The notes below the pieces were generated by a model. It saw only the letters and a list, made by a program, of their open reading frames with translations, did not search any database and was not told where the DNA came from. Below, one piece after another: positions 1-34,450 of a stretch of DNA of 64,000 nucleotides (position 1 is its first letter; every line of letters begins with the position of its first letter). The DNA comes from Anaeromyces robustus (taxonomy: Eukaryota): positions 62,001 to 126,000 of the forward strand of contig MCFG01000170.1 in assembly GCA_002104895.1 (NCBI GenBank). Reading direction: 5' to 3'. Made by a program: the position numbers and the translations under genes.

Positions 1-569
1 GACCCTTAGAGGTAATACGACGACCACTATTTCGTAAATAATTATTAATAAAAATACAAAAGTTTTCATTAATATTTCAAATTGTTATTATAAAAAATAA
101 ATAAAAATACAAAAACAATATCTTACCCGTTGTTGTCCTTTTCAAGAATTTCCATCTTTTCTAAACCTTGGACGATTTTTCTTAAAATGTTACCAGAGGC
201 ATCACAGTGGTGGGATGGACGAGTACCACGGTTGCAGGAGCTACCGTGCTTTCTACGGAGGGCACCAATACCAACATTTGGACGGAGGTAGATATGGCGA
301 GCAATAGAAGCTATTTATAATTTTTATAATTATTAACCATCTAACTACTATATAAAAAATAATAATAAATAAAACTAATATAAATTATTAAACATACCAG
401 CACGAATGTAGTACCAGTCTTGGTCGTATGGAGCAAGTTCCTTGAAAGTGGCGGTTTTAACAAGGTCAACCCATTTTGGGACATCTAATTTACCGGTTTT
501 TTTGAGGTAGGCAGCGTAGGCCTTAACGAAAACGTGTGGGTTTACGTCTTTGACAGTTGTTCCAGCCAT
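1..569 (-). CDS. RPS19: 40S ribosomal protein S19 (eS19), runs off the window's left edge; coding exons 569-398, 310-127, 26-<1
   Basis: Spliced translation [127 protein letters not shown] is classic eS19. The GT-AG introns keep frame. Confidence 0.97.
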
Positions 570-970: not shown

Positions 971-1146
971 TGTTAAACAAATTTGAAATACTGGTCCAAT
1001 TAGTCATTCAAAGTGTATGTGGCTTAAAATATTTTCATTGGATATTAAATTTTTATCCAATCTTTTTTTCGTATTTTAATGTATGTATTTAAAATGTACA
1101 TTATATATGAAATTTTTACTATATTAATATATTTTTTATTTATTTT

Positions 1147-1390
<244 letters not shown>

Positions 1391-2112: not shown

Positions 2113-3003
2113 TTATATTTTTGACTCTCTTTTACGACATTTAGATATGTAACAACATTTGCTATAAATGGAGAAATTTTTCTATTTCATTACTACTTAA
2201 ATATTTTTTTTTTTTTTTTTTTTTTTTTGAATCAGTTAAATAGAATTAAAAACATTTAATTAATAAATTTAATAAAAAAAACATTTTTCATTATTTACAA
2301 TTCTTTTAAATTTTTCATACATCTGGCAATGTTTTAATATAATTTCTATTCAGATCTCTTTTATATATAAAAAATATTAATCGTTTAAATAATTTTATTA
2401 TAATTAAATATTTTATAAAATTTATTATTTAATATATAATATTTACAAATATTCTAACTCAGTTAATCCATTAATAGAAAGAGGAATTACTTCTATTTTA
2501 TTATGTTTTAACTCTCTTTTTTATTATTATCATTATTATTTTAAAAAAAATTCTTGAATTAGTTATATGTGATTAAATATATATTTTTTAATTTAATAAT
2601 TTTAATAAAAAAAATTTTTTTTCATTTACTTAAAGAATTGCCAAATTATATAAATAAAAATTATTAATCTAAATAATAAAAAAAAATAAAAAGAAAAAAG
2701 AGGAAATTTTATTATTCAAATAATTTAATAATTATTACAATATTTCCATTGAATTTCCAATAGAAGATGGAATAATTTCAACTTTATGATAATCTTCAAC
2801 ACCATCTAAACATCTTTTATTATCATCAGCATTATTTCAAAATGAATTTTTTGAATTAGTCATATAATTAAAAATATTTCATTTATAAATTCAATATTAA
2901 TAAAAAAAATTAAAAATTAAAACATTTTTATTTACAATTCTTTTAAATTTTTTTTATTTTAAAAAGACCTCTGGTATTTCTTTAATATCATTTATTTGAT
3001 TTT
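2113..3003 (-). pseudogene. Decayed copy (A) of the LRR-TM gene family
   Basis: Remnants of exons 5, 6, 8, 9, 10 and the last codons (..CCYISKCRKRESKI*), plus the family 3' UTR. Exons 1-4, most of exon 7 and the stalk/TM part of exon 11 are missing. Exons 6 and 9 carry internal deletions. Confidence 0.85.
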
Positions 3004-4051
3004 TATAAAAAAAAAATTTTTTTTTTTTGTTTACCATTAAAAGTAAAAGAATAATTAAATAAATTTAATTGATTAAAAATTTTATTTTTAATAAAAATAA
3101 ACAAATTATTATAATTAAATTTTTTTAATTTATCCTATCACTATTTGTATATTTATTAACTTTAATTATTAAGTATTTAAAAGATTTCGGATTTTAATAA
3201 ATTGTATGCTTTAACGAAATTTCGAAAATTTTAATTAATACACATGTAATTAATATGTAATATATAATAAAGGATAAATTAATTAAATTTAATTATTAAA
3301 TAAATTCTTTGAAAAATATGAAAAATATAAAAAAAAAAAAATTAAAAAATTGATAAAAAAAAAAAAAAAAAAATAAAAGAATGAATGAATTAATGAATTA
3401 ATTAATTAATTAATAAATGAATAATAATAATAATATTAAATTATTTAAATTTTCTTTTTCATTTTATTTTCATTTTATTTATCTTTTATTTTTTTTTTTT
3501 TTTTTAAATAATAAATTTCAATTTTTAATTGATAAAAATTAAAATAGAAAATTAATTTTCTTGTTAAAGGAAAAGAAGTCTTGTCAATACAAGCTTTGTT
3601 TAGGAGAGGTTCACTTCAACATCGAAATTGTACGATAATTCAAGTTATGAGTGTAGTTTACCATATTGACTTGAGTGATTATCCCCTAAAGAGCTATATC
3701 TTTGAGAAGTGGAAAGAGTTACTAAATTATTAGTATAACTCTTAGTATCATATTATATAAAAAGGAAAATTAATTATCTAAATTTTATTATTATTATTAT
3801 TTTAAATATTTTAAATATTCTAAATTATATAAAAATATTATACCTTAATATATTTATTTATAATATGTTTTATTATTTGAATTAGATTACAAACAAATAT
3901 ATTTATTAATTCTATATTATAATAATCTAAGTTTTATATTAATAATAGTACAATATGCAATAATACTAATATTTAAATTCCTATTCATATGAAATATATA
4001 TCTGTTTGAATATTGGATTATTTTATTTTCTTTAATAATAAAAGGAAATAA

Positions 4052-5489
4052 TTATTTTCTTGGCTCTCTTGGCTCTTTTACAGAAATTTGTTTACATACG
4101 GAAAATATACCTGTCACTATTAATGCAAGAAAAACAACAAGAAAAAATATAACCACTGCCATTCCAATTATAAATTCTCTTAATCTTTTTTTTGGTGATA
4201 TGCTTTGTTCTTCTTCATTCTGTCTATTTTCTTCTTCAATTTCCCATTTATTTTGATAATTTACAGGTTTTTCTAACTTTTCTAAATCATTTATTGAATC
4301 AGGCAATTCTTTAATATAATTACCATATAAAGTTCTTTATATATATATATATATATATATATAATAATTATTAATAGCTAATATTAAATAGTTTTTTTTT
4401 TTTAATTACAGAAATATTAAAAATATCTGGTAATGAATTAATATAATTATACTTTACAATTTTTCTAATTCAGTTAAATTTGCGATAGATGGGGAAATTT
4501 CTTCTATTTTATTACTACTTAAATATCTTTTTTTTTTTTTTTTAGAAAAAAAAATAATTAATTAGGATTAAAAATATTTAATCAATAAATTTAATAAAAA
4601 AAAAACTTTTTTTTTCATTACTTACAATTCTTTTAAATTTTTCAATTGATATAGTTCATCTGGCAATGTTTTAATATTATTTCCACTCAGATTTCTTTTA
4701 TATATAAAATATTAAATATTATTTATTTAAATAATTTTTATAATTAAAAATTATATAAAATTTTACTATTTAATATATAATAATTACAAATATTCTAATT
4801 CAGTTGATTCCTTAATAGAAGGAGGAATTACTTCTATTTGATTATAGTTTAAATTTCTTTTTTATTATTATCATTATTTTAAGAAATAATTCATTGAATT
4901 AGTTACATATGATTAAATATACATTTTTAATTTAAAAATTTTAATAATTTTTTTTTTCATCTACTTACAAACGTTTTAATTTTTTCAATTGAAAAAGTTC
5001 ATTTGGCAATTCTTTAATTTCATTTTCACTTATATCTCTTTTATTATATAAATAAATAAAAATTATTAATTTATATAATTAAAAAATAAATAAATAATAA
5101 TAAAATATATATATATATTATTCAAATAATTTAATAATTATTACAATATTTCCAATTCAGATAAGTTTCCAATAGAAGATGGAATAATTTCTATTTTATG
5201 ATATATTTCAACACCTTCTAAACATCTTTTATTATCATCAGTATTATTTCAAAATGAATTTTTTTATTTTTGAATTAGTCATATAATTAAAAATATATTT
5301 AAAAATATTTTATTTATAAATTCAATAAAAAAAATAAACATTTTTATTTTTATTTACAATTCTTTTAATTTTTTCAATTTAAAAAGTTCTTCTGGTATTT
5401 CATTAAGATCGTTTACTTGATTTTGTCTTATAGTTCTTTTTTAATAAAAAATTTTTAATTTGAATATTTTTATATTTATATAATATTAA

Positions 5490-5523
<34 letters not shown>

Positions 5524-6445
5524 TATTATTCAAATAATATAATAATTATTACAATTTTTCTAATTCAGATAATTCTCCAATAACAGGTGGAATTTTAACA
5601 AATTCCAATCTATGTATTTTTCTTTTATATATATATATATATATAATAAATAAAAAATAAGAAAAAGAGTTTTCGAATTAGTTATAATAAAAATTTATTA
5701 TTCACAAAATTAATAAAAAAATATTTACAATTCTCTTAATTTTTTCAATTTAGCGAGTTCCTCAGGTAAATCTGTAACTGACATAAAATACATAGAACTT
5801 TATATATATATATATATATATATACATTAAATTTAAATTTTATTCAAATAAAAAAGAAAAAAAAAATACATAAAACAAAAATATTAAAAATAAATTATTA
5901 TTTAAATATTTATAATTGTTAGTATCTAATTACAGATATTCCAACTCAGATAATTCTCCAATAGAAGGAGGTATTTCTGTCATTTCTTCCATATTTAAAT
6001 GCCTATTTTATTATCATTGTTATTATTATTTTTATTTTTTTATAAGAAATTTTTTTGAAATTAGCCTTGGAATAAAATAAATTTTATTGTTTATAATAAT
6101 TTAAAACTTTATTATAATAATATTATATTATAATAATAACATTGTCACAATATTATATTATTGTATTTTATAATATTATATTATATTTATTATATTATAC
6201 TATATTGTACTGTATAAAAATATATACAATTCACGTATATGACCATCTTTAGTAATTGCAAAAGAAAAAGTCCCAGTATTATCACCACTATTTTCATGAC
6301 ATTCTTTATTATTTTTACCAATTATTGAATAAAAAATTTGACATTCTTCGTCAACACTTGTACTATTGTTAACATTGATAGAATTTACCAATGTTAAATT
6401 TAAAATAGAAATAATAATATTTAATAATAATATATTTAATTTCAT
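4052..6445 (-). CDS. LRR receptor-like protein copy B: signal peptide, Cys N-cap, 10 LRRs, acidic stalk, one TM, short tail; 380 aa; exons 6445-6228, 6002-5934, 5797-5729, 5621-5553, 5435-5358, 5225-5145, 5037-4969, 4856-4788, 4694-4626, 4526-4458, 4334-4052
   Basis: Manual splicing gives an open 1143-nt CDS. It starts MKLNILLLNIIISILNLTLVNS, has repeats such as L-NLSGNNIKTLPDELYQLKNLKEL and L-YLSSNKIEEISPSIANLTELEKL, and the TM FIIGMAVVIFFLVVFLALIVTGIFSV. All 10 introns are GT-AG and phase 2. Confidence 0.9.
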
Positions 6446-6993
6446 TTTTTTATTTTTTATTTTTTTTTTTATTTTAATATTTAATATTTTTATTTTTTGT
6501 TTTTTTTTTTGTTTTTTTGTTTTTTTTTTCAAAATTTTTATATTTAATATTCTTGTTTTTTTTTGTTTTTTTTTTCAAAATTTTAAAACTTTGCACTTTC
6601 TTTTTGTTTTTATATTGAAAAAAAAAAAAAAATTTTATTTTTTGTTTACTATTAAAAGTAAATGAATAGTTAAATAAATTTTAATATACATGCTTTTATT
6701 ATAAAATAATTTATTTTAATATATTTATTAATTTATTTTATTTTATAATTTAATTAATTAATATAGCTCTTTGCTACTCCTTTAATTATAATTATGTATA
6801 TTAATTAGATTTTTCGAATTTTTGTTAAAACAAATTTAATTATTAATTATTAAAAAGATTTCAAATTTTTAAAAATTAATTTTTTTATAAAAATATTTCT
6901 GAACCAAAAATAAATCAAAAATAAGAAAAAAAAGTAAAAAAAAAAAAAAAAAAATAAGATTAAATGAAAAAAAAAAAAGAATGAATGAATGAA

Positions 6994-7024
<31 letters not shown>

Positions 7025-7081
<57 letters not shown>

Positions 7082-7385
7082 GCAATAAAATAATGAAAAC
7101 TTTATTTAAATTTAATTTAAAAAGTACATGTTATAAAGTAATTGTACATATTAAAACTTAATCTAATAAAGAATAATAATTTATTATTTAATAGATAGTA
7201 ATAATTTATAATTACTTCATATGGTATAGTGTATATTATTAAATTAAATCAAGTTGGAAAGTTATTATCATTATTAGATGCGTGTGACCTACTGTCTTGT
7301 CCTACTGAATTGTCAGCTTCGACGCTCTTGGTTAGATTGTTGGGATACCTATTGAATAATGACCAGATCTGGCCACTAACAGTAG
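7025..7385 (-). mobile_element. 5'-truncated poly(A)-tailed retroposed insertion (3' end of a non-LTR element or an mRNA retrocopy)
   Basis: T56 at 7025-7080, about 170 nt of putative 3' UTR, then a GC-richer open frame ending STVSGQIWSLFNRYPNNLTKSVEADNSVGQDSRSHASNNDNNFPT* (TGA 7251-7249). It sits inside the (AAT)n tract, which is uninterrupted in the other spacers, with gaataataataat on both sides. Confidence 0.65.
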
Positions 7386-7398
7386 AATAATAATAATA

Positions 7399-7433
<35 letters not shown>

Positions 7434-7879
7434 TAAATTTTCATTTTCATTTTCATTTTCATTTTTTTTTATTTTTTTTTTTGAATAATGAATTTCAATT
7501 AATTAATTTTCTTGTTAAGGGTTAAGACATATACTTGTCAAAAAAAATAAACTTTGGAAATTTTATTGTTTTTTATTATTCTAAATTTTGGAAAATATTT
7601 TACTAAATTATATAAAAATATTATACATAAATAAAGATATAAAAGTATAATATTTTTATACCTTTATAATTTTATATATTTATCTATAATATGTTTTATT
7701 ATTTAATTAGATTACAACAAATATATTTATTTATTAATTCTATATTATAATAATCTAAGTTTTATATTAATAATAGTACAATATGTAATAATACTAATAT
7801 TTAAATTGCTATTTATATGAAATTTATATCTGTTTGAATATTGAATTATTTTATTTTTTTTAATAATAAAAGGAAATAA

Positions 7880-8676
7880 TTATATTCTTGGCTCTCTTAG
7901 CTCTCTTGGCTCTTTTGGCTCTTTTCTACAACAATGTTTACATAGGCAAAATATACATATCACTATTAATATAAGAATAACAACATGAAAAATTATATAC
8001 ATAGCTATTCCCATTGTAAGATTTCTTGAGTTTCTTTCATCTGCTATTCTTTGTTCTTCTTCATACCGTCTATTTTCTTCTTCAATTTCCCATTTATTTT
8101 GATAACGTACAGGTTTTTCCAACTTTTTTAAATCATTTATTGAATCAGGTAATTCTTTAATATAATTATCATATAAATTTCTTTTATATATATATATAAT
8201 AATTATTAATAACTAAATATTAATAGTTTTTTAAATTTCTTGTAATAAATTAATATAAGTATACTTTACAATTTTTCTAATTCAGTTAAATTTGCGATAG
8301 ATGGAGAAATTTTTTCTATTACATTACTACTTAAATATCTATTAAATTTATTTATTAAATATTTTTAATTCTAATTAACTAATTTTCTTTATTTTTTCTT
8401 AAAAAAAAAAAATCTTTTTTTCATTACTTACAATTCTTTTAAATTTTTCAATTGATATAATTCATCTGGCAATGTTTTAATTTTATTTCTACTCAGATCT
8501 CTTTATATATAAAATATATTAATAGTTTAAATAAATTTATTATAATTAAAAATTTTATAAAATTTATTGTTTAATATATAATATATATTTAATATATAAT
8601 ATTTACAAATATTCTAACTCAGTTGGTTCCTTAATAGAAGGAGGAATTACTTCTATTTGATTCCTGTGTAAATCTC

Positions 8677-8758
<82 letters not shown>

Positions 8759-9140
8759 CATTATTTTAAAAAAAAATTCATTGAATTAGTTATGATTAAA
8801 TATATATTTTTAATTTAAAAATTTTAATAATTTTTTTTTTTTCATCTATTTACAAATGTTTTAATTTTTTCAATTGAAAAAGTTCATTTGGCAATTCTTT
8901 AATTTCATTTCCACTTATATCTCTTTTATAATATAGATAAATAAAAATTATTAATTTTTATAATTAAAAAAAAAAATAAATAATAATAAATATATAAATA
9001 TATATTATTCAAATAATTTAATAATAATTACAATATTTCCAATTCAGATAAGTTTCCAATAGAAGATGGAATAATTTCTGCTTTATGATGATCTTCAACA
9101 CCTTCTAAACATCTTTTATTATCATCAGTATTATTTTAAA

Positions 9141-9176
<36 letters not shown>

Positions 9177-9392
9177 AATTAGCCATATAATTAAAAATAT
9201 ATTTAAAAATATTTTATTTATAAATTCAATATAAAAAAACATTTTTATTTTTATTTACAATTCTTTTAATTTTTTCAATTTAAAAAGTTCTTCTGGTATT
9301 TCATTAAGATCGTTTACTTGATTTTGTCTTATAGTTCTTTTTTATGAATTAAAAATTTTTTATTTAATATTTTTATATTTATATAATACTAA

Positions 9393-9429
<37 letters not shown>

Positions 9430-10387
9430 TATTATTCAAATATTATAATAAATATTACAATTTTTCTAATTCAGATAATTCTCCAATAACAGGTGGAATT
9501 TTAAAAAATTCTAATCTATGTATATATCTTTTTTTTTAATATATATATATATATATATATAATAAATAAAAAATAAGAAAAAGAGTTTTCGAATTAGTTA
9601 TAATAAAAATTTATTATTCACAAAATTAATAAAAAAATATTTACAATTCTTTTAATTTTTTCAATTTAGCGAGTTCAGCAGGTAAATCTGTAACTGACAT
9701 AAAATACATAGAACTTTATATATATATATATATACATTAAATTTAAATTTTATTACAAAAAAAAAAGAAAAAAAAAATACACAAAACAGAAATATTAAAA
9801 AAAAATTATTATTTAAATATTTATAATTGTTAGTATCTAATTACAGATATTCCAACTCAGATAATTCTCCAATAGAAGGAGGTATTTCTGTCATTTTTTC
9901 CATATTTAAATGCCTATTTTATTATTATTGTTATCATTATTTTTATTTTTTTATATAAGAAATTTTTTTGATTTTATATAAGAAATTTTTTTGAAATTAG
10001 CTTAAGAATAAAATAAATTTTATTGTTTATAATAATTTAAAACTTTATTATAATAATATTATTATATAATAATAACATTGTCACAATATTATATTATATT
10101 ATTGTATTTTATAATACTATATTATATTTATTATATTATACTATATTGTACTGTATAAAAATATATTACAATTCACGTATATGACCATCTTTAGTAATTG
10201 CAAAAGAAAAAGTCCCAGTATTATCACCACTATTTTCATGACATTCTTTATTATTTTTACCAATTATTGAATAAAAAATTTGACATTCTTCGTCAACACT
10301 TGTACTATTGTTAACATTGATTGAATTAACCAATGTTAAATTTAAAATAGAAATAATAATATTTAATAATAATATATTTAATTTCAT
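7880..10387 (-). CDS. LRR receptor-like protein copy C (11 exons, 10 LRRs, TM, Cys-rich juxtamembrane tail)
   Basis: Same exon series as copy B, with ATG at 10387. Last exon ends ...LTMGIAMYIIFHVVILILIVICIFCLCKHCCRKEPKEPRELREPRI*. Confidence 0.88.
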
Positions 10388-10897
10388 TTTTTTATTTTTT
10401 ATTTTTTTTTTTATTTTAATATTTAATATTTTTGCTTTTTGTTTTTTGTTTTTTGTTTTTTTTTTTTTTTTCAAAATTTTTATATTTAATATTCTTGTTT
10501 TTTTTTGTTTTTTTTTTTAAAATTTTAAAACTTTGCACTTTCTTTTTGTTTTTATATTGAAAAAAAAATTTTATTTTTTGTTTACTATTAAAAGTAAATG
10601 AATAGTTAAATAAATTTTAATATACATGCTTTTATTATAAAATAATTTATTTTAATATATTTATTAATTTATTTTATTTTATAATTAAATTAATTAATAT
10701 AGCTCTTTGCTACTCCTTTAATTATAATTGTGTATATTAATTAGATTTTTCGAATTTTCGTTAAAACAAATTTAATTATTAATTATTAAAAAGATTTTAA
10801 ATTTTTAAAAAAAATTAATTCTTTATAAAAATATTTCTGAACCAAAAATAAGGAAAAAAAGTTTAAAAAAAAAAATAAGATTAAAAGAAAAAAAGAA

Positions 10898-10969
<72 letters not shown>

Positions 10970-11398
10970 TACTATTTAAATTTTCATTTTCATTTTCATT
11001 TTTTTTTTATTCTTTTTTTTTTTAAAAAAATAATAAATTTCAATTAATTAATTTTCTTGTTAAGGATTAAGACATATACTTGTCAAAAAATTAAATTTTG
11101 GAAAATTTTATTACTTTTTATTATTCTAAATTATATAAAAATATTATACATAAAGATATTAAGGTATAAAAACATTATACCTTTATAACTTTATATATTT
11201 TTCTATAATATGTTTTATTATTTAATTAGATTACAACAAATATATTTATTTATTAATTCTATATTATAATAATCTAAGTTTTATATTAATAATAGTACAA
11301 TATGTAATAATACTAATATTTAAATTGCTATTTATATGAAATTTATATCTGTTTGAATATTGAATTATTTTATTTTTTTTAATAATAAAAGGAAATAA

Positions 11399-12600
11399 TT
11401 ATATTCTTGGCTCTCTTAGCTCTCTTGGCTCTTTTGGCTCTTTTCTACAACAATGTTTACATAGGCAAAATATACATATCACTATTAATATAAGAATAAC
11501 AACATGAAAAATTATATACATAGCTATTCCCATTGTAAGATTTCTTGAGTTTCTTTCATCTGCTATTCTTTGTTCTTCTTCATACCGTCTATTTTCTTCT
11601 TCAATTTCCCATTTATTTTGATAACGTACAGGTTTTTCTAACTTTTTTAAATCATTTATTGAATCAGGCAATTCTTTAATATAATTATCATATAAATTTC
11701 TTTTATATATATATATAATAATTATTAATAAATAAATATTAATAGTTTTTTAAATTACTTGTAATAAATTAATATAATTATACTTTACAATTTTTCTAAT
11801 TCAGTTAAATTTGCGATAGATGGAGAAATTCTTTCTATTTCATTACTAGTTAAATCTCTATTAAATTTTTTTATTAAATATTTTTAATCCTAATTAATTA
11901 ATTTTTTTTTTTTTCTCTTAAAAAAAACTTTTTTTTTTTTCATTACTTACAATTCTTTTAAATTTTTTAATTGATATAGTTCATCTGGCAATGTTTTAAT
12001 ATTATTTCCACTCAGTTCTCTTTTATATGTAAAATATAAAATATTAATAGTTTAAATAAATTTATTATAATTAAAAATTTTATAAAATTTTACTATTTAA
12101 TATATAATATTTACAAATATTCTAACTCAGTTGATTCCTTAATAGAAGGAGGAATTACTTTTATTTGATTACTGTTTAAATTTCTTTTTTATTATTATCA
12201 TTATTTTAAAAAAAAATTCATTGAATTAGTTATGATTAAATATATATTTTTAATTTAAAAATTTTAATAATTTTTTTTTTTCATCTATTTACAAATGTTT
12301 TAATTTTTTCAATTGAAAAAGTTCATTTGGCAATTCTTTAATTTCATTTCCACTTATATCTCTTTTATAATATAGATAAATAAAAATTATTAATTTATAT
12401 AATTAAAAAAAAAATAATAAATAATAATAAATATATATATATATATATACTATTCAAATAATTTAATAATTATTACAATATTTCCAATTCAGATAAGTTT
12501 ACAATAGAAGATGGAATAATTTCTGCTTTATGATGATCTTCAACACCTTCTAAACATCTTTTATTATCATCAGTATTATATCAAAATGAATTATTATTAT

Positions 12601-12631
<31 letters not shown>

Positions 12632-12848
12632 GAATTAGCCATATAATTAAAAATATATTTAAAAATATTTTATTTATAAATTCAATATAAAAAAACATTT
12701 TTATTTTTATTTACAATTCTTTTAATTTTTTCAATTTAAAAAGTTCTTCTGGTATTTCATTAAGATCGTTTACTTGATTTTGTCTTATAGTTCTTTTTTA
12801 TGAATTAAAAATTTTTTATTTAATATTTTTATATTTATATAATACTAA

Positions 12849-12885
<37 letters not shown>

Positions 12886-13825
12886 TATTATTCAAATATT
12901 ATAATAATTATTACAATTTTTCTAATTCAGATAATTCTCCAATAACAGGTGGAATTTTAAAAAATTCCAATCTATGTATATTTCTTTTTTTTAAAATATA
13001 TATATATATATAATAAATAAAAAATAAGAAAAAGAGTTTTCGAATTAGTTATAATAAAAATTTATTATTCACAAAATTAATAAAAAAATATTTACAATTC
13101 TTTTAATTTTTTCAATTTAGCGAGTTCAGCAGGTAAATCTGTAACTGACATAAAATACATAGAACTTTATATATATATATATATATATACATTAAATTTA
13201 AATTTTATTACAAAAAAAAAAGAAAAAAAAAATACACAAAACAGAAATATTAAAAAAAAAATTATTATTTAAATATTTATAATTGTTAGTATCTAATTAC
13301 AGATATTCCAACTCAGATAATTCTCCAATAGAAGGAGGTATTTCTGTCATTTCTTCCATATTTAAATGCCTATTTTATTATCATTGTTATCATTATTTTT
13401 ATTTTTTTATATAAGAAATTTTTTTGAAATTAGCTTAAGAATAAAATAAATTTTATTGTTTATAATAATTTAAAACTTTATTATAATAATATTATAATAT
13501 AGTAATAACATTGTCACAATATTATATTATATTATATTATTGTATTTTATAATACTATATTAAATTTATTATATTATACTATATTGTATTGTATAAAAAT
13601 ATATTACAATTCACGTATATGACCATCTTTAGTAATTGCAAAAGAAAAAGTCCCAGTATTATCACCACTATTTTCATGACATTCTTTATTATTTTTACCA
13701 ATTATTGAATAAAAAATTTGACATTCTTCGTCAACACTTGTACTATTGTTAACATTGATAGTATTAACCAATGTTAAATTGAAAATAGAAATAATAATAT
13801 TTAATAATAATATATTTAATTTCAT
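11399..13825 (-). CDS. LRR receptor-like protein copy D (11 exons)
   Basis: Same exon series. The last-exon protein is identical to copy C, while exons 8-10 differ (NLNSN, ELSGN, DLTSN). Confidence 0.88.
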
Positions 13826-14772
13826 TTTTTTTTTATTTTTATATTTAATATTTTTGTTTTTTGTTTTTTTTGTTTTTTTTTTTTTTTTTTTATTTTAATA
13901 TTTAATATTTTTGTTTTTTGTTTTTTGTTTTTTGTTTGTTTTTTTTTTTTCAAAATTTTAAAACTTTGCACTTTCTTTTTGTTTTTATATTGAAAAAAAA
14001 ATTTTTATTTTTTGTTTACTATTAAAAGTAAATGAATAGTTAAATAAATTTTAATATACATACTTTTATTATAAAATAATTTATTTTGATATATTTATAA
14101 TATATTTTATTTTATAATTTAATTAATTAATATAGCTCTTTGCTACTCCTTTAATTATAATTGTGTATATTAATTAGATTTTTCGAATTTTCGTTAATAC
14201 AAATTTAATTATTAATTATTAAAAAGATTTTAAATTTTTAAAAAATTTATTTTTTATAAAAATATATCTGAATCAAAAATAAGGAAAAAAAGTAAAAAAA
14301 AAAATTAGATTAAGGAAAGAAAAAAAGAATGAATGAATGAATGAATGAATAATAATAATATTATTATTATTACTATTATTTAAATTTTCCATTTTCTACT
14401 TTTTTTTATTCCTTTTTTTTTAAAAAAATAATGAATTTCAATTAATTAATGAAAATTGAAATAGAAAATTAATTTTCTTGTTAAGAGTAAAAAATAAATT
14501 TTGGAAAATTTTATTATTGTTTATTATTCTTAATTATATAAAAATATTATACCTTTATATCTTTATATATTTATCAATAATATGTTTTATGATTTTAATT
14601 AGATTAAAAACAAATATATTTATTAATTTTTTTTTATTATAATAATCTAAATTTTTATATTAATAGTAGTACAATATGTAATAATACTAATATTTAAATT
14701 GCTATTCATATGAAATATTTATCTGTTTGAATATTGAATTATTTTATTTTCTTTAATTATAAAAGAAAATAA

Positions 14773-16207
14773 TTATACTCTTGGCTCTCTTTTACAACAA
14801 CAATGTTTACATAGGCAAAATATACATATCACTGTTAATATAAGAATAGCAACAGCAATAGTTATCACTATAACTATTGCAGTTACAAGATCTTTTGCTC
14901 TTTTTTCATCTGCTGCTCTTTGTTCTTCATCATACCGTCTATGTTCTTCTTCAATTTCCCATTTATTTTGATAATTTACAGGTTTTTCTAACTTTTCTAA
15001 ATCATTTATTGAATCAGGCAATTCTGTAATATAATTATCATATAAAGTTCTTTATATATATATATATATAATAATTATTATTAATAGCTAATATTAAATA
15101 GTTTTTTTTTTTTAATTACAAAATTATTAAAAATAACTTTTAATAAATTAATATAAGTATACTTTACAATTTTTCTAATTCAGTTAAATTTGCGATAGAT
15201 GGAGAAATTTCTTCTAATTCATTACTACTTAAATATCTTTTTTTTTTTTTTTTAAGAAAAAAAAAATATTTAATTAGGATTAAAAATATTTAATCAATAA
15301 ATTTAATAAAAAATAAAACTTTTTTTTTTCATTACTTACAATTCTTTTAAACTTTTCAATTGATATAGTTCATCTGGCAATATTTTAATATTATTTCTAC
15401 CCAGATTTCTTTTATATATAAAAAATATAAAATAATAGTTTAAATAAATTTATTATAATTAAATATTTTATAAAATTTACTATTTAATATATAATATTTA
15501 CAAATATTCTAACACAGTTGATTCCTTAATATAAGGAGGAATTACTTCTATTTGATTACTGCCTAAATCTCTTTTTTATTATTATCATTATTATTTTAAA
15601 AAGAATTTCTCGAATTAGTTATATGTGATTAAATATATATTTTTAATTTAATAATTTTAATAATTTTTTTTTTCTTTTTTCATTTACTTACAAATGTTTT
15701 AATTTTTTCAATTGAAAAAGTTCATTTGGCAATTCTTTAATTTCATTTTCACTTATATCTCTTTTATTATATAAATAAATAAAAATTATTGATTTATATA
15801 ATTAAAAAAAAATAAATAATAATAAAAATATATATATTATTCAAATAATTTAATAATTATTACAATATTTCCAATTCAGATAAGTTTATAATAGAAGATG
15901 GAATAATTTCTATTTTATGATGATTTTCAACACCTTCTAAACATCTTTTATTATCATCAGTATTATTTCAAAATGAATTTTTTTTTTGAATTAGTCATAT
16001 AATTAAAAATATATTTAAAAATGTTTTATTTATAAATTCAATAAAAAAAATAAACATTTTTATTTTTATTTACAATTCTTTTAATTTTTTCAATTTAAAA
16101 AGTTCTTCTGGTATTTCCTTAATATCGTTTACTTGATTTTGTCTTATAGTTCTTTTATATGAATAAAAAATTTTTTATTTAATATTTTTATATTTATATA
16201 ATACTAA

Positions 16208-16238
<31 letters not shown>

Positions 16239-17182
16239 TATTATTCAAATATTATAATAAATATTACAATTTTTCTAATTCAGATAATTCTCCAATAACA
16301 GGTGGAATTTTAAAAAATTCCAATCTATGTATTTTTCTTTTTTTAAAATATATATATATATATATATATATAATAAATAAAAAATAAGAAAAAGAGTTTT
16401 CGAATTAGTTATAATAAAAATTTATTATTTACAAAATTAATAAAAAAATATTTACAATTCTTTTAATTTTTTCAATTTAGCGAGTTCCTCGGGTAAATCT
16501 GTAACTGACATAAAATACATAGAACTTTATATGTATATGTATATATATACATTAAATTTAAATTTTATTACAAAAAAGAAAGAAAAAAAAAATACACAAA
16601 ACAAAAATATTTAAAAAATTATTTAAATATTTATAATTGTTAGTATCTAATTACAGATATTCCAACTCAGATAATTCTCCAATAGAAGGAGGTATTTCTG
16701 TCATTTTTTCCATATTTAAATGCCTATTTTATAATCATTGTTATCATTATTTTTATTTTTTTATAAGAAATTTTTTTGAAATTAGCTTTGGAATAAAATA
16801 AATTTTATTGTTTATAATAATAATTTTAAAACTTATAATAATATAAAATGTTATTATAATATACTATTATTATAATAACATTTTAAAATTTATTCAGAAT
16901 ATATCATACTATATTATATATATTATACTATATTTGTATTGTATTGTATTGTATAAAAATATATTACAATTCACGTATATGATCATCTTTAGTAATTGCA
17001 AAAGAAAAAGACCCAGTATTACTAAAACTATTTTCATGGCATTTTCCATTATCTTTACCAATTATTGAATAAAAAATTTGACATTCTTCGTCAACACTTG
17101 TACTATTGTTAACATTGATAGAATTAACCAATGTTAAATTGAAGATAGAAATAATAATATTTAATAATATATTTAATTTCAT
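14773..17182 (-). CDS. LRR receptor-like protein copy E (11 exons)
   Basis: Same exon series. N-cap variant KDNGKCHENSFSNTGSF; TM/tail LVTAIVIVITIAVAILILTVICIFCLCKHCCCKREPRV*. Confidence 0.88.
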
Positions 17183-17897
17183 TTTGTTTTTGTTTTTTTT
17201 TTTATAATATTTTAATATTTTTTAATACTTTTTTTTTTTTTTTTGTTTTTATAAGAAAATTTTTTTTTTTTTTTTTTACTTTTTTTACCATTAAAAGTAA
17301 ATGAATAGTTATAAATTAACTATTCATTTATAAGAATTAAACCTTTATAAGAATAATTCAAAAATATCTGTGTAATATAATAATATTAAGATATGAATTA
17401 ATACTACATTTTTTTAATTATAAGTATTTATGAATTTTATGAATTAATCATTTGCATTGATTAATAAACTTTAAGTTTCATTATTACATTAAAGATCTTT
17501 ATAATAAATTTTTTTCTATATATTTTAACATTATTATATTTTGTCCTAATTTTAAATTCATAATAAATTAAAAAAAAAAATAATATTAAATAAAATAAAA
17601 ATTAACAAAAGTAAAAAATAAAATAACTTAATTTTATATATTTATTCTTTTATCCCTTAATTTATTAATTAATTAAAATTAGTATATTCAAAATTCCTTA
17701 GTATTATTTTAACAATTGTATAAACTAATATACTTTTATAATATATTTTTACTAAATATCTATAATGTAATTTAATATAATTATAATACAATGAAATAAA
17801 ATAAATTACAATACCATAATAAAATATAAAAATATAAATATATAAGTAAATAAAATACAAAATTAATAATATTTGAAGTGTAAAAAATAAAAAATAA

Positions 17898-17942
<45 letters not shown>

Positions 17943-18059
17943 CTTGTATCTAAAATAAGAAAAAAAGTAAAAAAAAAAAAAAAAAAAAAATAAGATTAAT
18001 GAAAGAAAAAAAGAAAGAAAAAATGAAAGAATGAATGAATGAATAAATGAATGAATGAA

Positions 18060-18157
<98 letters not shown>

Positions 18158-18562
18158 TTTTTTTTTATTCCTTTTTTTTTAAAAAAAATAATGAATTTCA
18201 ATTAATTAATGAAAATTGAAAAAAAAAATTAATTTTCTTGTTAAGAGTTAAGACATATACTTGTCAAAAAAATAAATTTTGGAAAAAATTATTATTGTTT
18301 ATTATTCTTAATTATATAAAAATATTATTATACCTTTATATCTTTATATATTTATCAATAATATGTTTTATGATTTTAATTAGATTACAAACAAATATAT
18401 TTAATTAATTTTTTTTATTATAATAATCTAAATTTTTATATTAATAATAGTACAATATGCAATAATACCAATAATACTAATATTTAAATTGCTATTCATA
18501 TGAAATATATATCTGTTTGAATATTGAATTATTTTATTTTCTTTAATAATAAAAGAAAATAA

Positions 18563-20617
18563 TTATACTCTTGACTCTGTTATACAACAATGTTTATATA
18601 GGCAACATAGACACGTCACTATTAATATTACAAGAATAACAACAGGAATAGTTATCAATATAACTATTGAAGTTACAATATCTTTTGATCTTTTTTCATC
18701 TGCTTTTCTTTTTTCTTCATCATATCGTCTATATTCTTCTTCAATTTCCCATTTATTTTGATAATTTACAGGTTTTTCTAACTTTTCTAAATCATTTATT
18801 GAATCGGGCAATTCTGTAATATAATTATCATATAAATTTCTTTTATATATATAATAATTATTAATAGCTAATATTAAATACTTTTTTTTAATTTACAAAA
18901 TTATTAAAAATATCTTGTAATAAATTAATAAGTATACTTTACAATTTCTCTAATTCAGTTAAATTTGCGATAGACGGAGAAATTTCTTCTATTTCATTAC
19001 TACTTAAATATCTTTTTTTTTTTTTTTTTTAAGAAAAAAAAATATTTAATTAGGATTAAATATATTTAATCAATAAATTTAATAAAAAAAAAAAAACTTT
19101 TTTTTTTTATTACTTACAATTCTTTTAAATTTTTCAATTGATATAGTTCATCTGGCAATGTTTTAATATTATTTCTACCCAGATCTTTTATTATATAGAT
19201 AAATCAAAATTATTAATTTATATAATTAAAAAAAAAATAAATAATAATAAAAATATATATATTATTCAAATAATTTAATAATTATTACAATATTTCCAAT
19301 TCAGATAAGTTTACAATAGAAGATGGAATAATTTCTGCTTTATGATGATTTTCAACACCATCTAAACATCTTTTATTATCATCAGTATTATTTCAAAATG
19401 AATTTTTTTTTTTTTTTTTTTTTGAATTAGTCATATAATTAAAAATATATTTAAAAATATTTTATTTATAAATTCAATAAAAAAATAAACATTTATATTT
19501 ACAATTCTTTTAATTTTTTCAATTTAAAAAGTTCTTCTGGTATTTCATTAAGATCGTTTACTTGATTTTGTCTTATAGTTCTTTTATATGAATAAAAATT
19601 TTTTTAATTTGAATATTTTATATTTATGTAATATTAAAATAATAATAATAATAATAATAAAATATTATTCAAATATTATAATAACTATTACAATTTTTCT
19701 AATTCAGATAATTCTCCAATAACAGGTGGAATTTTAAAAAATTCCAATCTATGTATATATCTTTTTTTTTAAAAAAAAAAAAATAATAAAATAAAATATA
19801 TATATATATAATAAATAAATAAAAAATAAGAAAAAGAGTTTTCGAATTAGTTATAATAAAAATTTATTATTTACAAAACTAATAAAAAAATATTTACAAT
19901 TCTTTTAATTTTTTCAATTTAGCGAGTTCAACAGGTAAATCTGTAACTGACATAAAATACATAGAACTTTATATGTATATATATATATATATTAAATTTA
20001 AATTTTATTACAAAGAAGAAAGAAAGAAAAAAATACACAAAACAAAAATATTTAAAAAATTATTTAAATATTTATAATCGTTAGTATCTAATTACAGATA
20101 TTCCAACTCAGATAATTCTCCAATAGAAGGAGGTATTTCTGTCATTTTTTCCATATTTAAATGCCTATTTTATTATCATTGTTATTATTATTTTTATTTT
20201 TTTATATAAGAAATTTTTTTGAAATTAGCTTTGAAATAAATAAATTTTATTGTTTATAATAATTTAAAACTTTATTATAATAATACTATATTATAATAAT
20301 AGCATTGTCATAATATTATTTTATATTATTATAATATATCATACTATATTATATATATTATACTATATTTGTATTGTATTGTATTGTATAAAAATATATT
20401 ACAATTCACGTATATGATCATCTTTAGTAATTGCAAAAGAAAAAGACCCAGTATTACTAAAACTATTTTCATGACATTTTCCATTATTTTTACCAATTAT
20501 TGAATAAAAAATTTGACATTCTTCGTCAACACTTGTACTATTGTTAACATTGATAGAATTAACCAATGTTAAATTGAAGATAGAAATAATAATATTTAAT
20601 AATAAATTTAATTTCAT
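18563..20617 (-). CDS. LRR receptor-like protein copy F: lacks LRR exons 7 and 8 and has a damaged exon-9 acceptor (shortened protein or incipient pseudogene)
   Basis: Exon 6 (about 19369-19289) is followed directly by an exon-9-type exon of only 67 nt (19184-19118). The remaining exons appear intact, ending ...IVTCLCCLYKHCCITESRV*. Confidence 0.7.
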
Positions 20618-28503: not shown

Positions 28504-28546
<43 letters not shown>

Positions 28547-33895: not shown

Positions 33896-33937
<42 letters not shown>

Positions 33938-33960
33938 TTGATATATCAAATCATTCATAC

Positions 33961-34108
<148 letters not shown>

Positions 34109-34450
34109 TCATTAATTATATAAAAAACTTTATATAATTATTATTGATTTAATAATACATACTATTTTATTAAAACTTTCATTTATATCATTAATCTTTT
34201 CTTTAATAACAATTAAACTATGTATATTTTTAATTACTTTTTCTTTTTTTTATTTATTATTTTATTTCTTTCTACTTTTTTCTACATACTTTTCTTTAGT
34301 TATTGTTATTTTTGTTTTTAACTTTGTCAAACAAAAAAGAGTTAATGAAAAAAAAATAATAATAAAAAATTTTTAAATTAAATTTAATTAATATAAAGTT
34401 TAATTATTAATACTTTTAAACTTACAAATATATATATTTTTTAAAATTAA

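What the first reader, a model, noticed from the sequence alone, without database searches (positions are those of the whole stretch)
2113..20617. Tandem array of LRR-TM receptor-like genes hidden by one-repeat-per-exon splicing
Seen: six head-to-tail units of about 3.4-3.9 kb. The ORF track shows only the first and last exons. The nine tiny exons between them splice into signal peptide + 2-Cys N-cap + 10 LRRs + acidic stalk + one TM + a short cytoplasmic tail with no kinase, TIR or other signalling domain. Known: this layout matches plant LRR receptor-like proteins (Cf-9/CLV2 type) and animal LRR surface receptors, whereas characterised fungal non-self receptors are mostly intracellular NLR-like proteins with WD/TPR/ANK repeats. 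Inference: a diversifying extracellular recognition (immune or symbiont sensing) locus in an early-diverging, probably gut, fungus.
Basis: partly seen in the sequence, partly recalled or inferred. Interest (0 to 1): 0.85.

Follow-up and report, generated by a model that had tools for sequence, protein, structure and literature searches.

The report
Surface LRR gene array, gut fungus
An anaerobic gut fungus carries a head-to-tail cluster of genes, each split into eleven small exons, that encode membrane-anchored leucine-rich-repeat surface proteins, a receptor-like type long thought nearly absent from fungi and mostly missed or cut short by public gene annotation.

Summary
The array has four intact 11-exon genes (A-D, 377-386 aa). 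A fifth (E) lacks two LRR exons and has a damaged splice acceptor. The "sixth" is a ~0.9-kb decayed remnant.

All 48 introns are GT..AG and phase 2, one LRR per exon. Exons are 24% GC against 7-8% in introns. Introns carry 49 indel events; exons carry 3, all multiples of three.

The spliced models align collinearly, at 55-61% identity, with intron-free database sequences of the same architecture. One transcript-like contig retains only intron 1, at the same codon position.

The family's N-cap was found by name only in anaerobic gut fungi (Pecoramyces, Piromyces), mostly as truncated "hypothetical" models.

The repeats are the 23-residue Leptospira/SHOC2 type, not the plant 24-residue type. Resemblance to Cf-9/CLV2 is therefore in layout only.

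Scaffold positions are nearly invariant (2 of 72). Concave-face positions vary most (12 of 24), and dN/dS is about 1 or higher.

Best reading: functional, diversifying type-I surface binding proteins with no signalling domain. The ligand is unknown and an immune role is untested. Read-level splice evidence could not be obtained.

The parts
7880..10387 (-). Unit B, intact 11-exon gene (386 aa). Exons: 10387-10170, 9913-9845, 9713-9645, 9527-9459, 9336-9259, 9112-9032, 8922-8854, 8675-8607, 8500-8432, 8338-8270, 8180-7880
   Evidence: Collinear with P0027 (60.8% over 324 aa, E 4.9e-94) and P0006 (59.0% over 305 aa) with no gap at any junction
10170..10387 (-). Unit B exon 1: hydrophobic leader (signal-peptide-like, ...LVNS|IN) plus 2-Cys N-cap; ends in phase 2
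   Evidence: An exon-1 profile finds 14 family representatives among 1.84 billion proteins
8270..9913 (-). Unit B exons 2-10: nine exons of 69, 69, 69, 78, 81, 69, 69, 69 and 69 nt, one LRR each. All are phase 2-2 and two repeat types alternate
7880..8180 (-). Unit B exon 11: LRR10, charged stalk with a KWxI(E/D)EE motif, single TM, Cys cluster and short basic tail containing a 9-nt tandem repeat (7886-7922)
4052..6445 (-). Unit A, intact gene (380 aa). Exons: 6445-6228, 6002-5934, 5797-5729, 5621-5553, 5435-5358, 5225-5145, 5037-4969, 4856-4788, 4694-4626, 4526-4458, 4334-4052
11399..13825 (-). Unit C, intact gene (386 aa). Exons: 13825-13608, 13369-13301, 13164-13096, 12983-12915, 12792-12715, 12557-12477, 12361-12293, 12183-12115, 12019-11951, 11857-11789, 11699-11399
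14773..17182 (-). Unit D, intact gene (377 aa). Exons: 17182-16968, 16723-16655, 16524-16456, 16336-16268, 16151-16074, 15944-15864, 15760-15692, 15570-15502, 15408-15340, 15236-15168, 15049-14773
18563..20617 (-). Unit E, impaired copy. Exons 7-8 were deleted by recombination between the exon-7 and exon-9 modules. The exon-9 acceptor G is lost, so the canonical junction gives an in-frame TAG. The frame stays open (327 aa) only through the alternative acceptor before 19174
2113..3003 (-). Unit F, decayed remnant. Pieces of exon 5 (3003-2936), 6 (2813-2754), 8 (2511-2447), 9 (2355-2299, 10 gaps) and 10 (2204-2157) and the last 27 nt of exon 11 (2139-2113). In-frame stops are present; exons 1-4 and the TM are absent
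6446..7879 (-). Spacer between units B and A (B's 3' flank and A's promoter side). It is partly conserved between units and holds long poly-T/poly-A and AAT tracts and an unexplained GC-richer island at 7241-7400
   Evidence: (families D10, D18, D20)

Best explanation
This is a birth-and-death tandem array of paralogous genes for a type-I membrane protein family whose N-cap was found by name only in anaerobic gut fungi (Neocallimastigomycota). Each protein has a cleavable leader, a family-specific 2-Cys N-cap, a ten-repeat LRR solenoid of the 23-residue type, a flexible charged stalk, one TM helix followed by a Cys cluster, and a short basic tail with no enzymatic or adaptor domain.

The gene is modular. 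Every LRR is its own exon, all introns are phase 2 inside the same Leu codon of the repeat, and two repeat types alternate. Repeats can therefore be gained or lost in frame by recombination between modules, as seen in unit E.

Inferred mechanism: the LRR ectodomain is displayed on the cell surface and binds an external ligand through its concave beta-sheet face, mainly the membrane-proximal LRR7-10, where the paralogues differ most. Because the tail carries no signalling domain, the protein would act either as an adhesin or as the ligand-binding half of a receptor that signals through a partner.

Shown: gene structure, architecture, LRR class, lineage restriction of the N-cap, constraint on frame and scaffold, and excess variation on the concave face. 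Inferred: signal-peptide cleavage, outward topology, palmitoylation of the Cys cluster, ligand binding, and any biological role.
For: Gene models. All 48 of 48 introns are GT..AG and phase 2. Exon GC is 0.24 against 0.07-0.08 in introns. Introns carry 49 indel events in 1457 alignment columns (36 not a multiple of 3). Exons carry 3 events in 1161 columns, all multiples of 3. With at least 66 substitutions in exons 1-10, the chance of no stop codon is 0.009 with uniform targets and 0.0003 with AT-weighted targets.

Independent joined sequences. P0027 (369 aa, filling a 1110-nt contig) and P0006 (305 aa) have the same N-cap and 10-LRR order. P0027 also has the stalk, TM and tail. They align at 59-61% identity with no gap at any of the 10 junctions. 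L001 has an ATG, a 218-nt exon 1 and a 98-nt GTAATA..AAAAG insert of 6% GC at the same codon position as intron 1. After that a single open frame covers LRR1-10, stalk, TM and tail. Removing the insert gives 374 codons with no stop.

LRR identity. The repeat profile hits 56 distinct PDB sequences; the best is LIC10831 at 4.3e-41 with 13 repeats matched. P0027 and P0006 pass Pfam LRR_14, LRR_8 and LRR_4 cut-offs. The AF2 model of P0027 has pLDDT 87 and pTM 0.76, with 10 strand/helix turns, a disordered stalk and a terminal helix. Foldseek's best hits are Leptospira LIC proteins, SHOC2 and LRRC8.

Topology. There is one N-terminal and one C-terminal hydrophobic segment. In unit B there are more K/R after the TM than before it (6 against 2; the other units differ less or go the other way). 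The ectodomain has net charge -19 to -25 and carries N-x-S/T sequons. The N-cap Cys pair is at least 90% conserved in 20 relatives. Relatives have ...ILA|Q-type leader ends.

Selection. dN/dS in the LRR region is 0.70-2.94 over six pairs. Within the array, variable sites are 12 of 24 at concave positions 5, 7 and 8, 15 of 88 at other x positions (Fisher p 0.002) and 2 of 72 at scaffold positions. Across the family the figures are 22 of 24 against 53 of 88 (p 0.003). Variable sites per repeat are 7, 6, 5 and 4 in LRR7-10 against 1-2 in LRR1-3 and 6.

Lineage. Of the 16 representatives found by the N-cap profile, 14 are family-like, and the named ones are only Pecoramyces and Piromyces.
Against: The intron-free relatives could be cDNA-derived or intron-poor paralogues. 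Either way they validate the joined frames, but they do not show splicing of the window's genes directly.

No signal-peptide or TM predictor was available, so topology rests on hydropathy, charge and motif heuristics. The structure was predicted for the relative P0027 (61% identical), not for a window protein.

dN/dS rests on small counts (2.5-7 synonymous differences per pair), and gene conversion among copies is likely. A ratio near 1 with excess variation at exposed concave positions is also what relaxed constraint on an unused surface would give.

One copy is impaired and one is dead, so the locus is partly decaying. No ligand, partner or expression condition is known.
Confidence: 0.7

Rival explanations
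1. Non-self or symbiont pattern-recognition receptor. The LRR ectodomain senses bacterial, archaeal or host molecules and signals through a co-receptor, as plant RLPs do with SOBIR1/BAK1.
For: The layout is that of a receptor-like protein. The array shows birth-and-death evolution, with excess variation on the concave face and dN/dS near or above 1. Repeat number varies within the family, from 10 to about 16 LRRs. In a Pecoramyces study, a gene annotated 'LRR receptor-like serine...' is among the ten most down-regulated in methanogen co-culture. I saw Table 3 of PMC6414434 as a passage; that gene is not shown to belong to this family.
Against: No signalling domain, conserved tail motif or candidate partner was found. 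The tail is not conserved between relatives. There is no homology to plant or animal PRRs beyond the LRR fold. No expression or binding data exist.
Confidence: 0.2
2. Pure adhesin or structural surface protein. The LRR domain sticks zoospores or rhizoids to plant particles, to other microbes or to the fungus's own wall. No signalling is involved, and the paralogues differ in binding specificity.
For: The tail is short, non-conserved and basic, with only an anchor-like Cys cluster. One relative has a GPI-anchor-like C-terminus in place of the TM and tail (P0037), which suggests that anchoring alone is what matters. The closest solved LRR relatives, the Leptospira LIC proteins and internalins, are bacterial surface or secreted LRR proteins. 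Their adhesin roles are recalled, not tested here.
Against: No binding data exist. No carbohydrate-binding or dockerin module is present. The pattern of variation does not separate an adhesin from a receptor.
Confidence: 0.3
3. A decaying, non-functional duplicated array whose open frames persist only because the duplications are recent.
For: dN/dS is about 1. Exon and intron substitution levels are similar: exon identity is 0.87-0.99 and intron identity 0.78-0.97. Unit E is impaired and unit F is dead.
Against: Introns have 36 frame-breaking indel events and exons have none. No stop codon arises despite at least 66 substitutions (P 0.009 to 0.0003). Scaffold positions are variable at only 2 of 72 sites. 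The same architecture is conserved at 55-61% identity in other members.
Confidence: 0.05
4. An intracellular SHOC2/RSU1-like scaffold, with the N-terminal hydrophobic stretch not acting as a secretion signal.
For: The LRR subtype is the one used by cytosolic SHOC2, RSU1 and the cytosolic LRR domain of LRRC8.
Against: An N-terminal hydrophobic leader with small residues at -3 and -1 is conserved across the family. There is a conserved Cys pair in the cap and a single C-terminal TM; in unit B there are more K/R after the TM than before it. Feature-based look-alikes of the last exon are extracellular LRR-TM proteins, but at score 0.85 this is a lead only.
Confidence: 0.03

Closest known systems
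Plant LRR receptor-like proteins (Cf-9, CLV2, RLP23 type)
   Same: The domain order is the same: leader, Cys-containing N-cap, LRR ectodomain, spacer/charged region, single TM and a short basic tail without a kinase. Both occur in tandem arrays with variable repeat number. Both show variation on the xxLxLxx face (the plant side of this comparison is recalled).
   Different: The repeats here are 23 residues long, without the plant-specific 24-residue ...NxLSGxIP... form. Plant receptors rank below Leptospira LIC, RSU1, SHOC2 and LRRC8 in both the sequence and fold searches. No plant N-cap model was reported and there is no island domain or GxxxG in the TM. Each repeat has its own exon, whereas plant RLP genes are mostly intron-poor (recalled).
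Leptospira interrogans LIC10831 / LIC11098 / LIC12759 / LIC12234 LRR proteins (PDB 4u06, 4u08, 4u09, 4tzh)
   Same: These are the best sequence and structure matches for the repeat unit: 23 residues with the ...NxIxxIPxxIxxLxxL... form. E is 4.3e-41 with 13 repeats matched and Foldseek gives 6.5e-16.
   Different: They are bacterial proteins without this N-cap, stalk, TM or tail. The similarity is at the level of repeat class and is not evidence of common descent or gene transfer.
SHOC2, RSU1 and LRRC8 LRR domains
   Same: They share the same 23-residue repeat class and curvature (TM-score 0.58, rmsd 2.2-2.6 A over about 240-267 columns).
   Different: Those domains are cytosolic. Here the domain sits between a secretion leader and a TM helix.
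LRR receptors and receptor kinases of early-diverging fungi
   Same: These are LRR proteins with one TM in zoosporic or early-diverging fungi. Soanes & Talbot 2010 (PMC2939053, abstract and section 5 read) found LRR-plus-TM proteins in only 6 of 49 fungal species, 5 genes in 4 species after curation. A 2026 paper reports expanded LRR-RLK families in a Lobulomycetales chytrid (PMC13618815, passages read).
   Different: This family has no kinase, a lineage-specific N-cap, and lies in Neocallimastigomycota. That phylum is not among the fungal groups the 2010 survey lists (microsporidia, chytrids, zygomycota, basidiomycota, ascomycota).
LRR surface-protein families of anaerobic or parasitic protists (Trichomonas/Entamoeba BspA-like proteins, Leishmania PSA/GP46); recalled, not tested
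   Same: These are multigene families of LRR surface proteins with a TM or GPI anchor and a short tail, in microbes that live on mucosal or gut surfaces.
   Different: BspA-like proteins use the TpLRR/LRR_5 repeat. Here LRR_5 is absent (P0027) or below its cut-off (P0006, 23.6 against 27.7 bits).
Genes with one LRR per exon and uniform intron phase (glycoprotein-hormone receptor/LGR genes, ribonuclease inhibitor); recalled, not tested
   Same: Repeat-per-exon modularity with symmetric intron phase allows repeats to be gained or lost in frame.
   Different: They are unrelated animal genes. Here two module types alternate, and module loss is seen directly in unit E.

Membership tests
Leucine-rich repeat superfamily (Pfam LRR clan: LRR_8, LRR_4, LRR_14) | Tandem repeats with the LxxLxLxxN(x)L core that pass the curated Pfam cut-offs | tested here: met
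   Single exons are too short to pass (best E 0.04-0.1). The profile of 27 exon repeats hits 56 distinct PDB LRR sequences, the best at 4.3e-41. The collinear relatives P0027 and P0006 (59-61% identical) pass LRR_14 (109.9 and 105 bits, cut-off 40), LRR_8 and LRR_4. The spliced window proteins themselves were not scanned.
Leucine-rich repeat superfamily | Curved solenoid with a parallel beta-sheet on the concave face | tested here: met
   The AF2 model of relative P0027 has pLDDT 87.0 and pTM 0.76, with ten strand/short-helix turns. Foldseek gives probability 1.00 to LRR structures. The window protein itself was not folded.
Plant LRR receptor-like proteins (Cf-9/CLV2 type) | Leader, extracellular LRRs, single TM and a short tail without a kinase | tested here: met
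   Topology rests on heuristics only.
Plant LRR receptor-like proteins (Cf-9/CLV2 type) | Plant-specific 24-residue repeat (the consensus is recalled) | tested here: not met
   Eight of the ten repeats are 23 residues and the other two are 26-27. Plant receptors score lower than Leptospira LIC and RSU1: HSL1 1.8e-10, FLS2 3.6e-7.
Plant LRR receptor-like proteins (Cf-9/CLV2 type) | Plant-type N-terminal cap (LRRNT_2) and GxxxG motif in the TM (recalled as typical) | tested here: not met
   No such Pfam match was reported on exon 1 (E up to 1), on P0006, P0012 or P0016 (E up to 0.01), or on P0027, P0030, P0037, P0017 or P0028 (E up to 0.001). No GxxxG is seen in the five aligned TM segments.
Plant LRR receptor-like proteins (Cf-9/CLV2 type) | Signalling through an adaptor kinase (SOBIR1/BAK1-like) | not testable with these tools
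   No genome of the organism is held, and there are no interaction data.
Animal extracellular LRR-TM proteins and Toll-like receptors | Cys-knot LRRNT/LRRCT caps, and a TIR domain for TLRs | tested here: not met
   Only LRR-repeat models are reported on P0027 and P0006, with no LRRNT, LRRCT or TIR. The more distant relative P0030 has a Cys-rich segment after its LRRs, seen by eye.
23-residue 'Leptospira LIC / SHOC2 / RSU1' repeat class | Repeat length of 23 with the ...NxIxxIPxxIxxLxxL... consensus | tested here: met
   The consensus of 27 repeats is xLxxNxIxxIPPxIxxLxxLEx. These proteins are the top hits in both sequence and fold searches. This is membership of a repeat class, not of a gene family.
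BspA-like / TpLRR surface proteins | LRR_5 (PF13306) repeat | tested here: not met
   P0027 has no LRR_5 hit at E up to 0.001. P0006 scores 23.6 bits, below the 27.7 cut-off.
Anaerobic-fungal N-cap LRR-TM family (defined here) | Leader followed by an ECQxYYSI(I/L)G...C cap running into ...GHIxxL and LRR1 | tested here: met
   All five window copies have it. The profile finds 16 representatives at E up to 1e-3. All 14 that were fetched carry the motif, 13 with both Cys; P0007 has Y for the first Cys. The other 2 of the 16 are Sushi and SUEL-lectin repeat proteins and are taken as spurious.

The most novel reading that the evidence does not exclude
Anaerobic gut fungi possess a lineage-specific, fast-diversifying repertoire of cell-surface LRR receptor-like proteins. 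This would be an extracellular LRR-based recognition system for bacteria, methanogens, the host or plant matter, in a kingdom reported to almost entirely lack LRR surface receptors. It would have been built independently of the plant and animal systems from the 23-residue repeat class otherwise used inside cells. Its exon-per-repeat gene design would let specificity and repeat number change by recombination.
Probability: 0.2. Interest if true: 0.8.

Novelty: new variant of a known kind. Interest (0 to 1): 0.55.

Why it matters
LRR proteins with a single TM were reported absent from 43 of 49 fungal genomes. That finding shaped the view that fungi sense non-self with intracellular NLR-like proteins rather than surface LRR receptors (PMC2939053, abstract and section 5 read).

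This locus shows that anaerobic gut fungi hold at least one multi-copy, evolving family with the receptor-like-protein layout. The named public models are truncated fragments (95-237 aa), because each repeat is a tiny exon in 7-8% GC introns, so censuses based on predicted proteomes will undercount the family.

Anaerobic fungi live attached to plant particles in dense consortia with bacteria and methanogens. Surface binding proteins are therefore direct candidates for attachment or partner recognition, and this family gives a concrete, testable set of ectodomains.

The locus is also a clean example of exon-modular repeat evolution, with a two-module deletion caught in one paralogue.

Tried and rejected
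1. Read-level test of splicing. The look-up of sequencing runs listed 22 runs for window:3901-13900. One probable DNA run held 0.60 of the sampled words. Six runs on record as metatranscriptomic 'fungus metagenome' held 0.20-0.25, and two more held 0.19. Because nothing was laid, these shares are not used as evidence of expression or splicing.

2. Word-indexed searches for longer annotated proteins with exon 1 (162 candidates, none at E up to 0.01) and exon 11 (239 candidates, none) found nothing. This is weak evidence that full-length models with these exact ends are not annotated.

3. The 22-column LRR profile was too short for the search for homologous proteins.

4. Pfam on single exons gave nothing significant.

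No genome is held for the window, so family size in this genome could not be counted.

6. An ESM Atlas search with exon 11 gave a best score of 0.85 to extracellular LRR clusters. That is below the level at which it counts as more than a lead.

7. The GC-richer islands in two spacers are not tRNAs or Rfam families.

8. Bacterial origin by gene transfer was considered because the best PDB hits are Leptospira proteins. I rejected it as unsupported: the same repeat class is common in eukaryotes (SHOC2, RSU1, LRRC8), the genes carry ten spliceosomal introns, and repeat-class similarity is not phylogenetic evidence.

9. The N-cap profile's hits to a Sushi-repeat protein and a SUEL-lectin protein were judged to be summed weak matches to Cys-containing repeats, not homology.

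10. Literature searches: 'Neocallimastigomycota' + 'leucine-rich repeat' (4 papers); 'anaerobic fungi' + 'LRR' + 'receptor' (4); 'anaerobic gut fungi' + 'leucine-rich' (2); 'L domain-like' with genus names (none of the 10 listed papers held the phrase). The gut-fungal membrane-proteome paper PMC5168858 has 0 occurrences of 'leucine' or 'LRR'. I saw no description of this family. Only open-access papers and preprints were searched, and no supplements were opened.

Full report
**What is there.** The window is extremely AT-rich (GC 0.08-0.24 per 2 kb; about 0.14 over the array). Between 2113 and 20617, direct-repeat families with five copies recur at 3.36-3.94 kb. An ATG-ORF list shows only five near-identical 72-81-aa ORFs on the minus strand, at 6445, 10387, 13825, 17182 and 20617. 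Reading one unit on the minus strand shows short coding islands ending ...GAATT|GTAA. A mechanical scan for AG-bounded, GT-terminated, stop-free segments in phase 2 recovers the same nine 69-81-nt exons in each unit.

**Gene models.** Joining the exons by coordinates gives open frames of 380 (A), 386 (B), 386 (C) and 377 (D) codons, with introns of 89-256 nt. All 48 introns of units A-E start GTA (47 of 48 GTAA) and end AG. Every intron is phase 2 and splits the same Leu codon of the repeat, so each LRR is one symmetric exon.

**Are the exons real?**
- Exon GC is 0.237-0.243 against 0.071-0.082 in introns.
- Among A-D, exons 2-10 have no gap column, while all ten introns have indels.
- Counted as events, introns carry 49 indels in 1457 columns, 36 of them not a multiple of three. 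Exons carry 3 in 1161 columns, of 3, 18 and 6 nt.
- At least 66 substitutions separate the copies in exons 1-10. Between 6.8% (uniform) and 11.8% (AT-weighted) of single-base changes in this CDS would create a stop. The chance of seeing no stop is therefore 0.009 to 0.0003.
- One caveat: the introns are low-complexity and intrinsically indel-prone.

**Independent joined sequences.** A profile of the five exon-1 translations was searched with HMMER against 1.84 billion representatives. It found 16 proteins at E up to 1e-3, of which 7 were at 1e-10 or better.
- I fetched 14 of them. All carry the cap motif ECQxYYSI(I/L)G...C, 13 with both cysteines.
- In 6 of the 14 (P0003, P0005, P0006, P0012, P0013, P0016) the cap runs straight into LRRs at the predicted exon-1/exon-2 junction.
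- The other two are Sushi-repeat and SUEL-lectin proteins and look spurious.
- A follow-up search with P0006 found P0027: 369 aa filling a 1110-nt contig, with cap, ten LRRs (including the two over-long repeats 4 and 5), stalk, TM and a short basic tail.
- The window models align to P0027 at 60.8% over 324 aa (E 4.9e-94) and to P0006 at 59.0% over 305 aa. No gap falls at any of the ten junctions.

**A transcript-like contig.** Locus L001 (1272 nt) has a leader and an ATG at 52, then a 218-nt exon 1, the same length as in units A-C. Next comes a 98-nt GTAATA...AAAAG insert of 6% GC at the same codon position as the window's intron 1. After it, one open frame covers LRR1-10, stalk, TM and tail. 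Cutting out the insert gives 374 codons with no stop.
- This is either a partly spliced transcript or an intron-poor paralogue.
- Either way it validates the joined frames and the position of intron 1.
- It does not directly show splicing of the window's own copies.

**What the protein is.**
- The consensus of 27 exon repeats is xLxxNxIxxIPPxIxxLxxLEx.
- As a profile it hits 56 distinct PDB sequences. Best are the Leptospira interrogans proteins LIC10831 (4.3e-41, 13 repeats matched), LIC11098, LIC12759 and LIC12234. Then come RSU1 (6.6e-12), plant HSL1 (1.8e-10), SHOC2 (1.5e-9), LRRC8A (1.6e-8) and FLS2 (3.6e-7).
- P0027 and P0006 pass the Pfam LRR_14, LRR_8 and LRR_4 cut-offs and match nothing else.
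- AlphaFold2 on P0027 with a 20-sequence family alignment gives pLDDT 87.0 and pTM 0.76. The model has a leader helix, a helix-plus-hairpin cap, ten strand/short-helix turns, a disordered stalk (residues 307-332) and a long terminal helix.
- Foldseek again ranks Leptospira LIC proteins, SHOC2 and LRRC8 first (TM-score 0.52-0.58, rmsd 2.2-2.6 A for the latter two). Plant receptor ectodomains and internalins rank lower.
- The fold is therefore an LRR solenoid of the 23-residue class, not the plant-specific class. The resemblance to Cf-9/CLV2 is one of domain order only.

**Topology (inferred).**
- There is one N-terminal hydrophobic segment and one strong C-terminal one (Kyte-Doolittle 3.3-3.4).
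- More K/R follows the TM than precedes it in unit B (6 against 2).
- The ectodomain is acidic (net -19 to -25) and carries five or six N-x-S/T sequons.
- Four to six cysteines sit at and just after the cytoplasmic end of the TM in units B-E.
- The two cap cysteines are at least 90% conserved in 20 relatives, and relatives end their leaders in ...ILA|Q-like sites.
- The tail is short, basic and not conserved between relatives. In B and C it contains a 9-nt tandem repeat.

**Evolution of the array.**
- Units B and C are the closest pair (intron distance 0.036), and D is the furthest from them (0.104).
- dN/dS over the LRR region is 0.98, 1.56, 1.74, 0.70, 1.22 and 2.94 for the six pairs, on only 2.5-7 synonymous differences per pair.
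- Variation is far from uniform. Within the array, scaffold positions vary at 2 of 72 sites, concave-face positions 5, 7 and 8 at 12 of 24, and the other x positions at 15 of 88 (Fisher p 0.002).
- Across seven 10-LRR members the figures are 22 of 24 against 53 of 88 (p 0.003).
- Variable sites are concentrated in LRR7-10 (7, 6, 5, 4) against 1-2 in LRR1-3 and 6. A first, cruder test gave 14 of 50 against 21 of 187, p 0.006.
- This fits a functional fold whose binding surface is diversifying. Relaxed constraint on an exposed surface is not excluded.
- Modules alternate in two types. Even-even and odd-odd identity is 0.59-0.71, and even-odd is mostly 0.46-0.59 (see also families D2 and D3). The gene therefore grew by duplication of two-exon units.

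**The two defective copies.**
- Unit E lost exactly one such two-exon unit, exons 7-8. Its junction has exon 7's upstream context joined to exon-9 sequence, and the acceptor G is missing. The canonical junction therefore runs into TAG, and only a downstream AG keeps the frame.
- Unit F is a decayed remnant.

**Distribution and annotation.**
- Named relatives of the cap are JGI models of Pecoramyces ruminantium (99-237 aa, several ending exactly at exon ends) and a 95-aa 'hypothetical protein' of Piromyces sp. E2.
- The rest are unnamed contigs.
- An Anaeromyces robustus 'L domain-like protein' shares only the LRR part.
- L002 encodes a member with the same cap, about 16 LRRs, a TM and a tail.
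- P0030 and P0037 show further variants, with a Cys-rich C-cap and a GPI-like end respectively.
- The cap was found in no other named lineage among 1.84 billion representatives.
- The neighbouring genes are ordinary: RPS19e, PGM/PMM, a WD40 protein and NPL4.

**Literature.** Soanes & Talbot 2010 (PMC2939053; abstract and section 5 read) defined LRR receptors as LRR plus one TM. They found them in only 6 of 49 fungal species, five genes in four species after curation. Neocallimastigomycota is not among the fungal groups that survey lists. A 2026 paper reports expanded LRR-RLKs in a chytrid (PMC13618815, passages). The gut-fungal membrane-proteome paper does not mention LRRs (PMC5168858, term search). 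A Pecoramyces co-culture study lists an 'LRR receptor-like serine...' gene among the top down-regulated genes (PMC6414434, Table 3 passage); its relation to this family is unknown. The searches surfaced no description of this family. No supplements were opened.

**Verdict.** This is a real, probably functional, lineage-restricted family of surface LRR proteins in a birth-and-death array, with an exon-per-repeat design.

Noticed in passing
window 127-569 (-): Exons of a ribosomal protein S19e gene lie directly beside the array. The 378-569 piece matches Pfam Ribosomal_S19e at E 5.3e-22. A further in-frame exon candidate lies at 252-127.
   Followed up: partly
window 25963-31653 (+): A 1896-codon uninterrupted frame, mostly Asn-rich low-complexity sequence with a more ordinary-looking C-terminal part. 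It has no Pfam family at E up to 1e-4.
   Followed up: partly
window 38708-41491 (-), 47083-47373 (+), 52255-53384 (+): Ordinary housekeeping neighbours split by introns: a PGM/PMM domain I exon (1.1e-27), a WD40-repeat exon, and NPL4 exons (4.2e-66 and 2.6e-21).
   Followed up: partly
window 3591-3720 and 7241-7400: Two GC-richer islands (0.35 and 0.44 in 80-nt windows) lie in the spacers downstream of units A and B. They are not shared by all units and are not tRNA or Rfam matches. Unexplained; they may be fragments of a mobile element.
   Followed up: partly
window 7886-7922 and 11405-11441: A 9-nt tandem repeat (4.1 copies) inside the last exon encodes the EPK/EPR repeats of the cytoplasmic tail. 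Tail length differs between paralogues by multiples of three.
   Followed up: partly
window 1079-1390, 33899-34123, 60979-61330: The same short satellite, read as LFIY repeats in ORF lists, recurs at three distant places in the window.
   Followed up: no
P0010 and P0014 (hits): The N-cap profile (positions about 27-53, around the two cysteines) matches 7 stretches of a Sushi-repeat protein and 5 stretches of a SUEL-lectin protein. This is probably the summed weak likeness of Cys-containing repeats, but the cap's fold class was not examined.
   Followed up: partly
L008 (2910-3737; GC 0.17; from a 106-kb contig): A very AT-rich long contig carries an uninterrupted LRR match of 36% identity over residues 45-303 of P0006. 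It may be an intron-free LRR gene of a related organism.
   Followed up: no
L002 79-1635 (+): A full-length family member with about 16 LRRs and a cap with extra cysteines. Repeat number and cap type therefore vary within the family.
   Followed up: partly
P0030, P0037, P0058/P0119/P0126: Other AT-rich-looking secreted or anchored LRR proteins share the repeat class but have different caps: a Cys-rich C-cap with TM, a GPI-like end, or a secreted form with a Cys-rich C-terminus. This hints at a wider extracellular LRR repertoire. Their organisms are unnamed.
   Followed up: no
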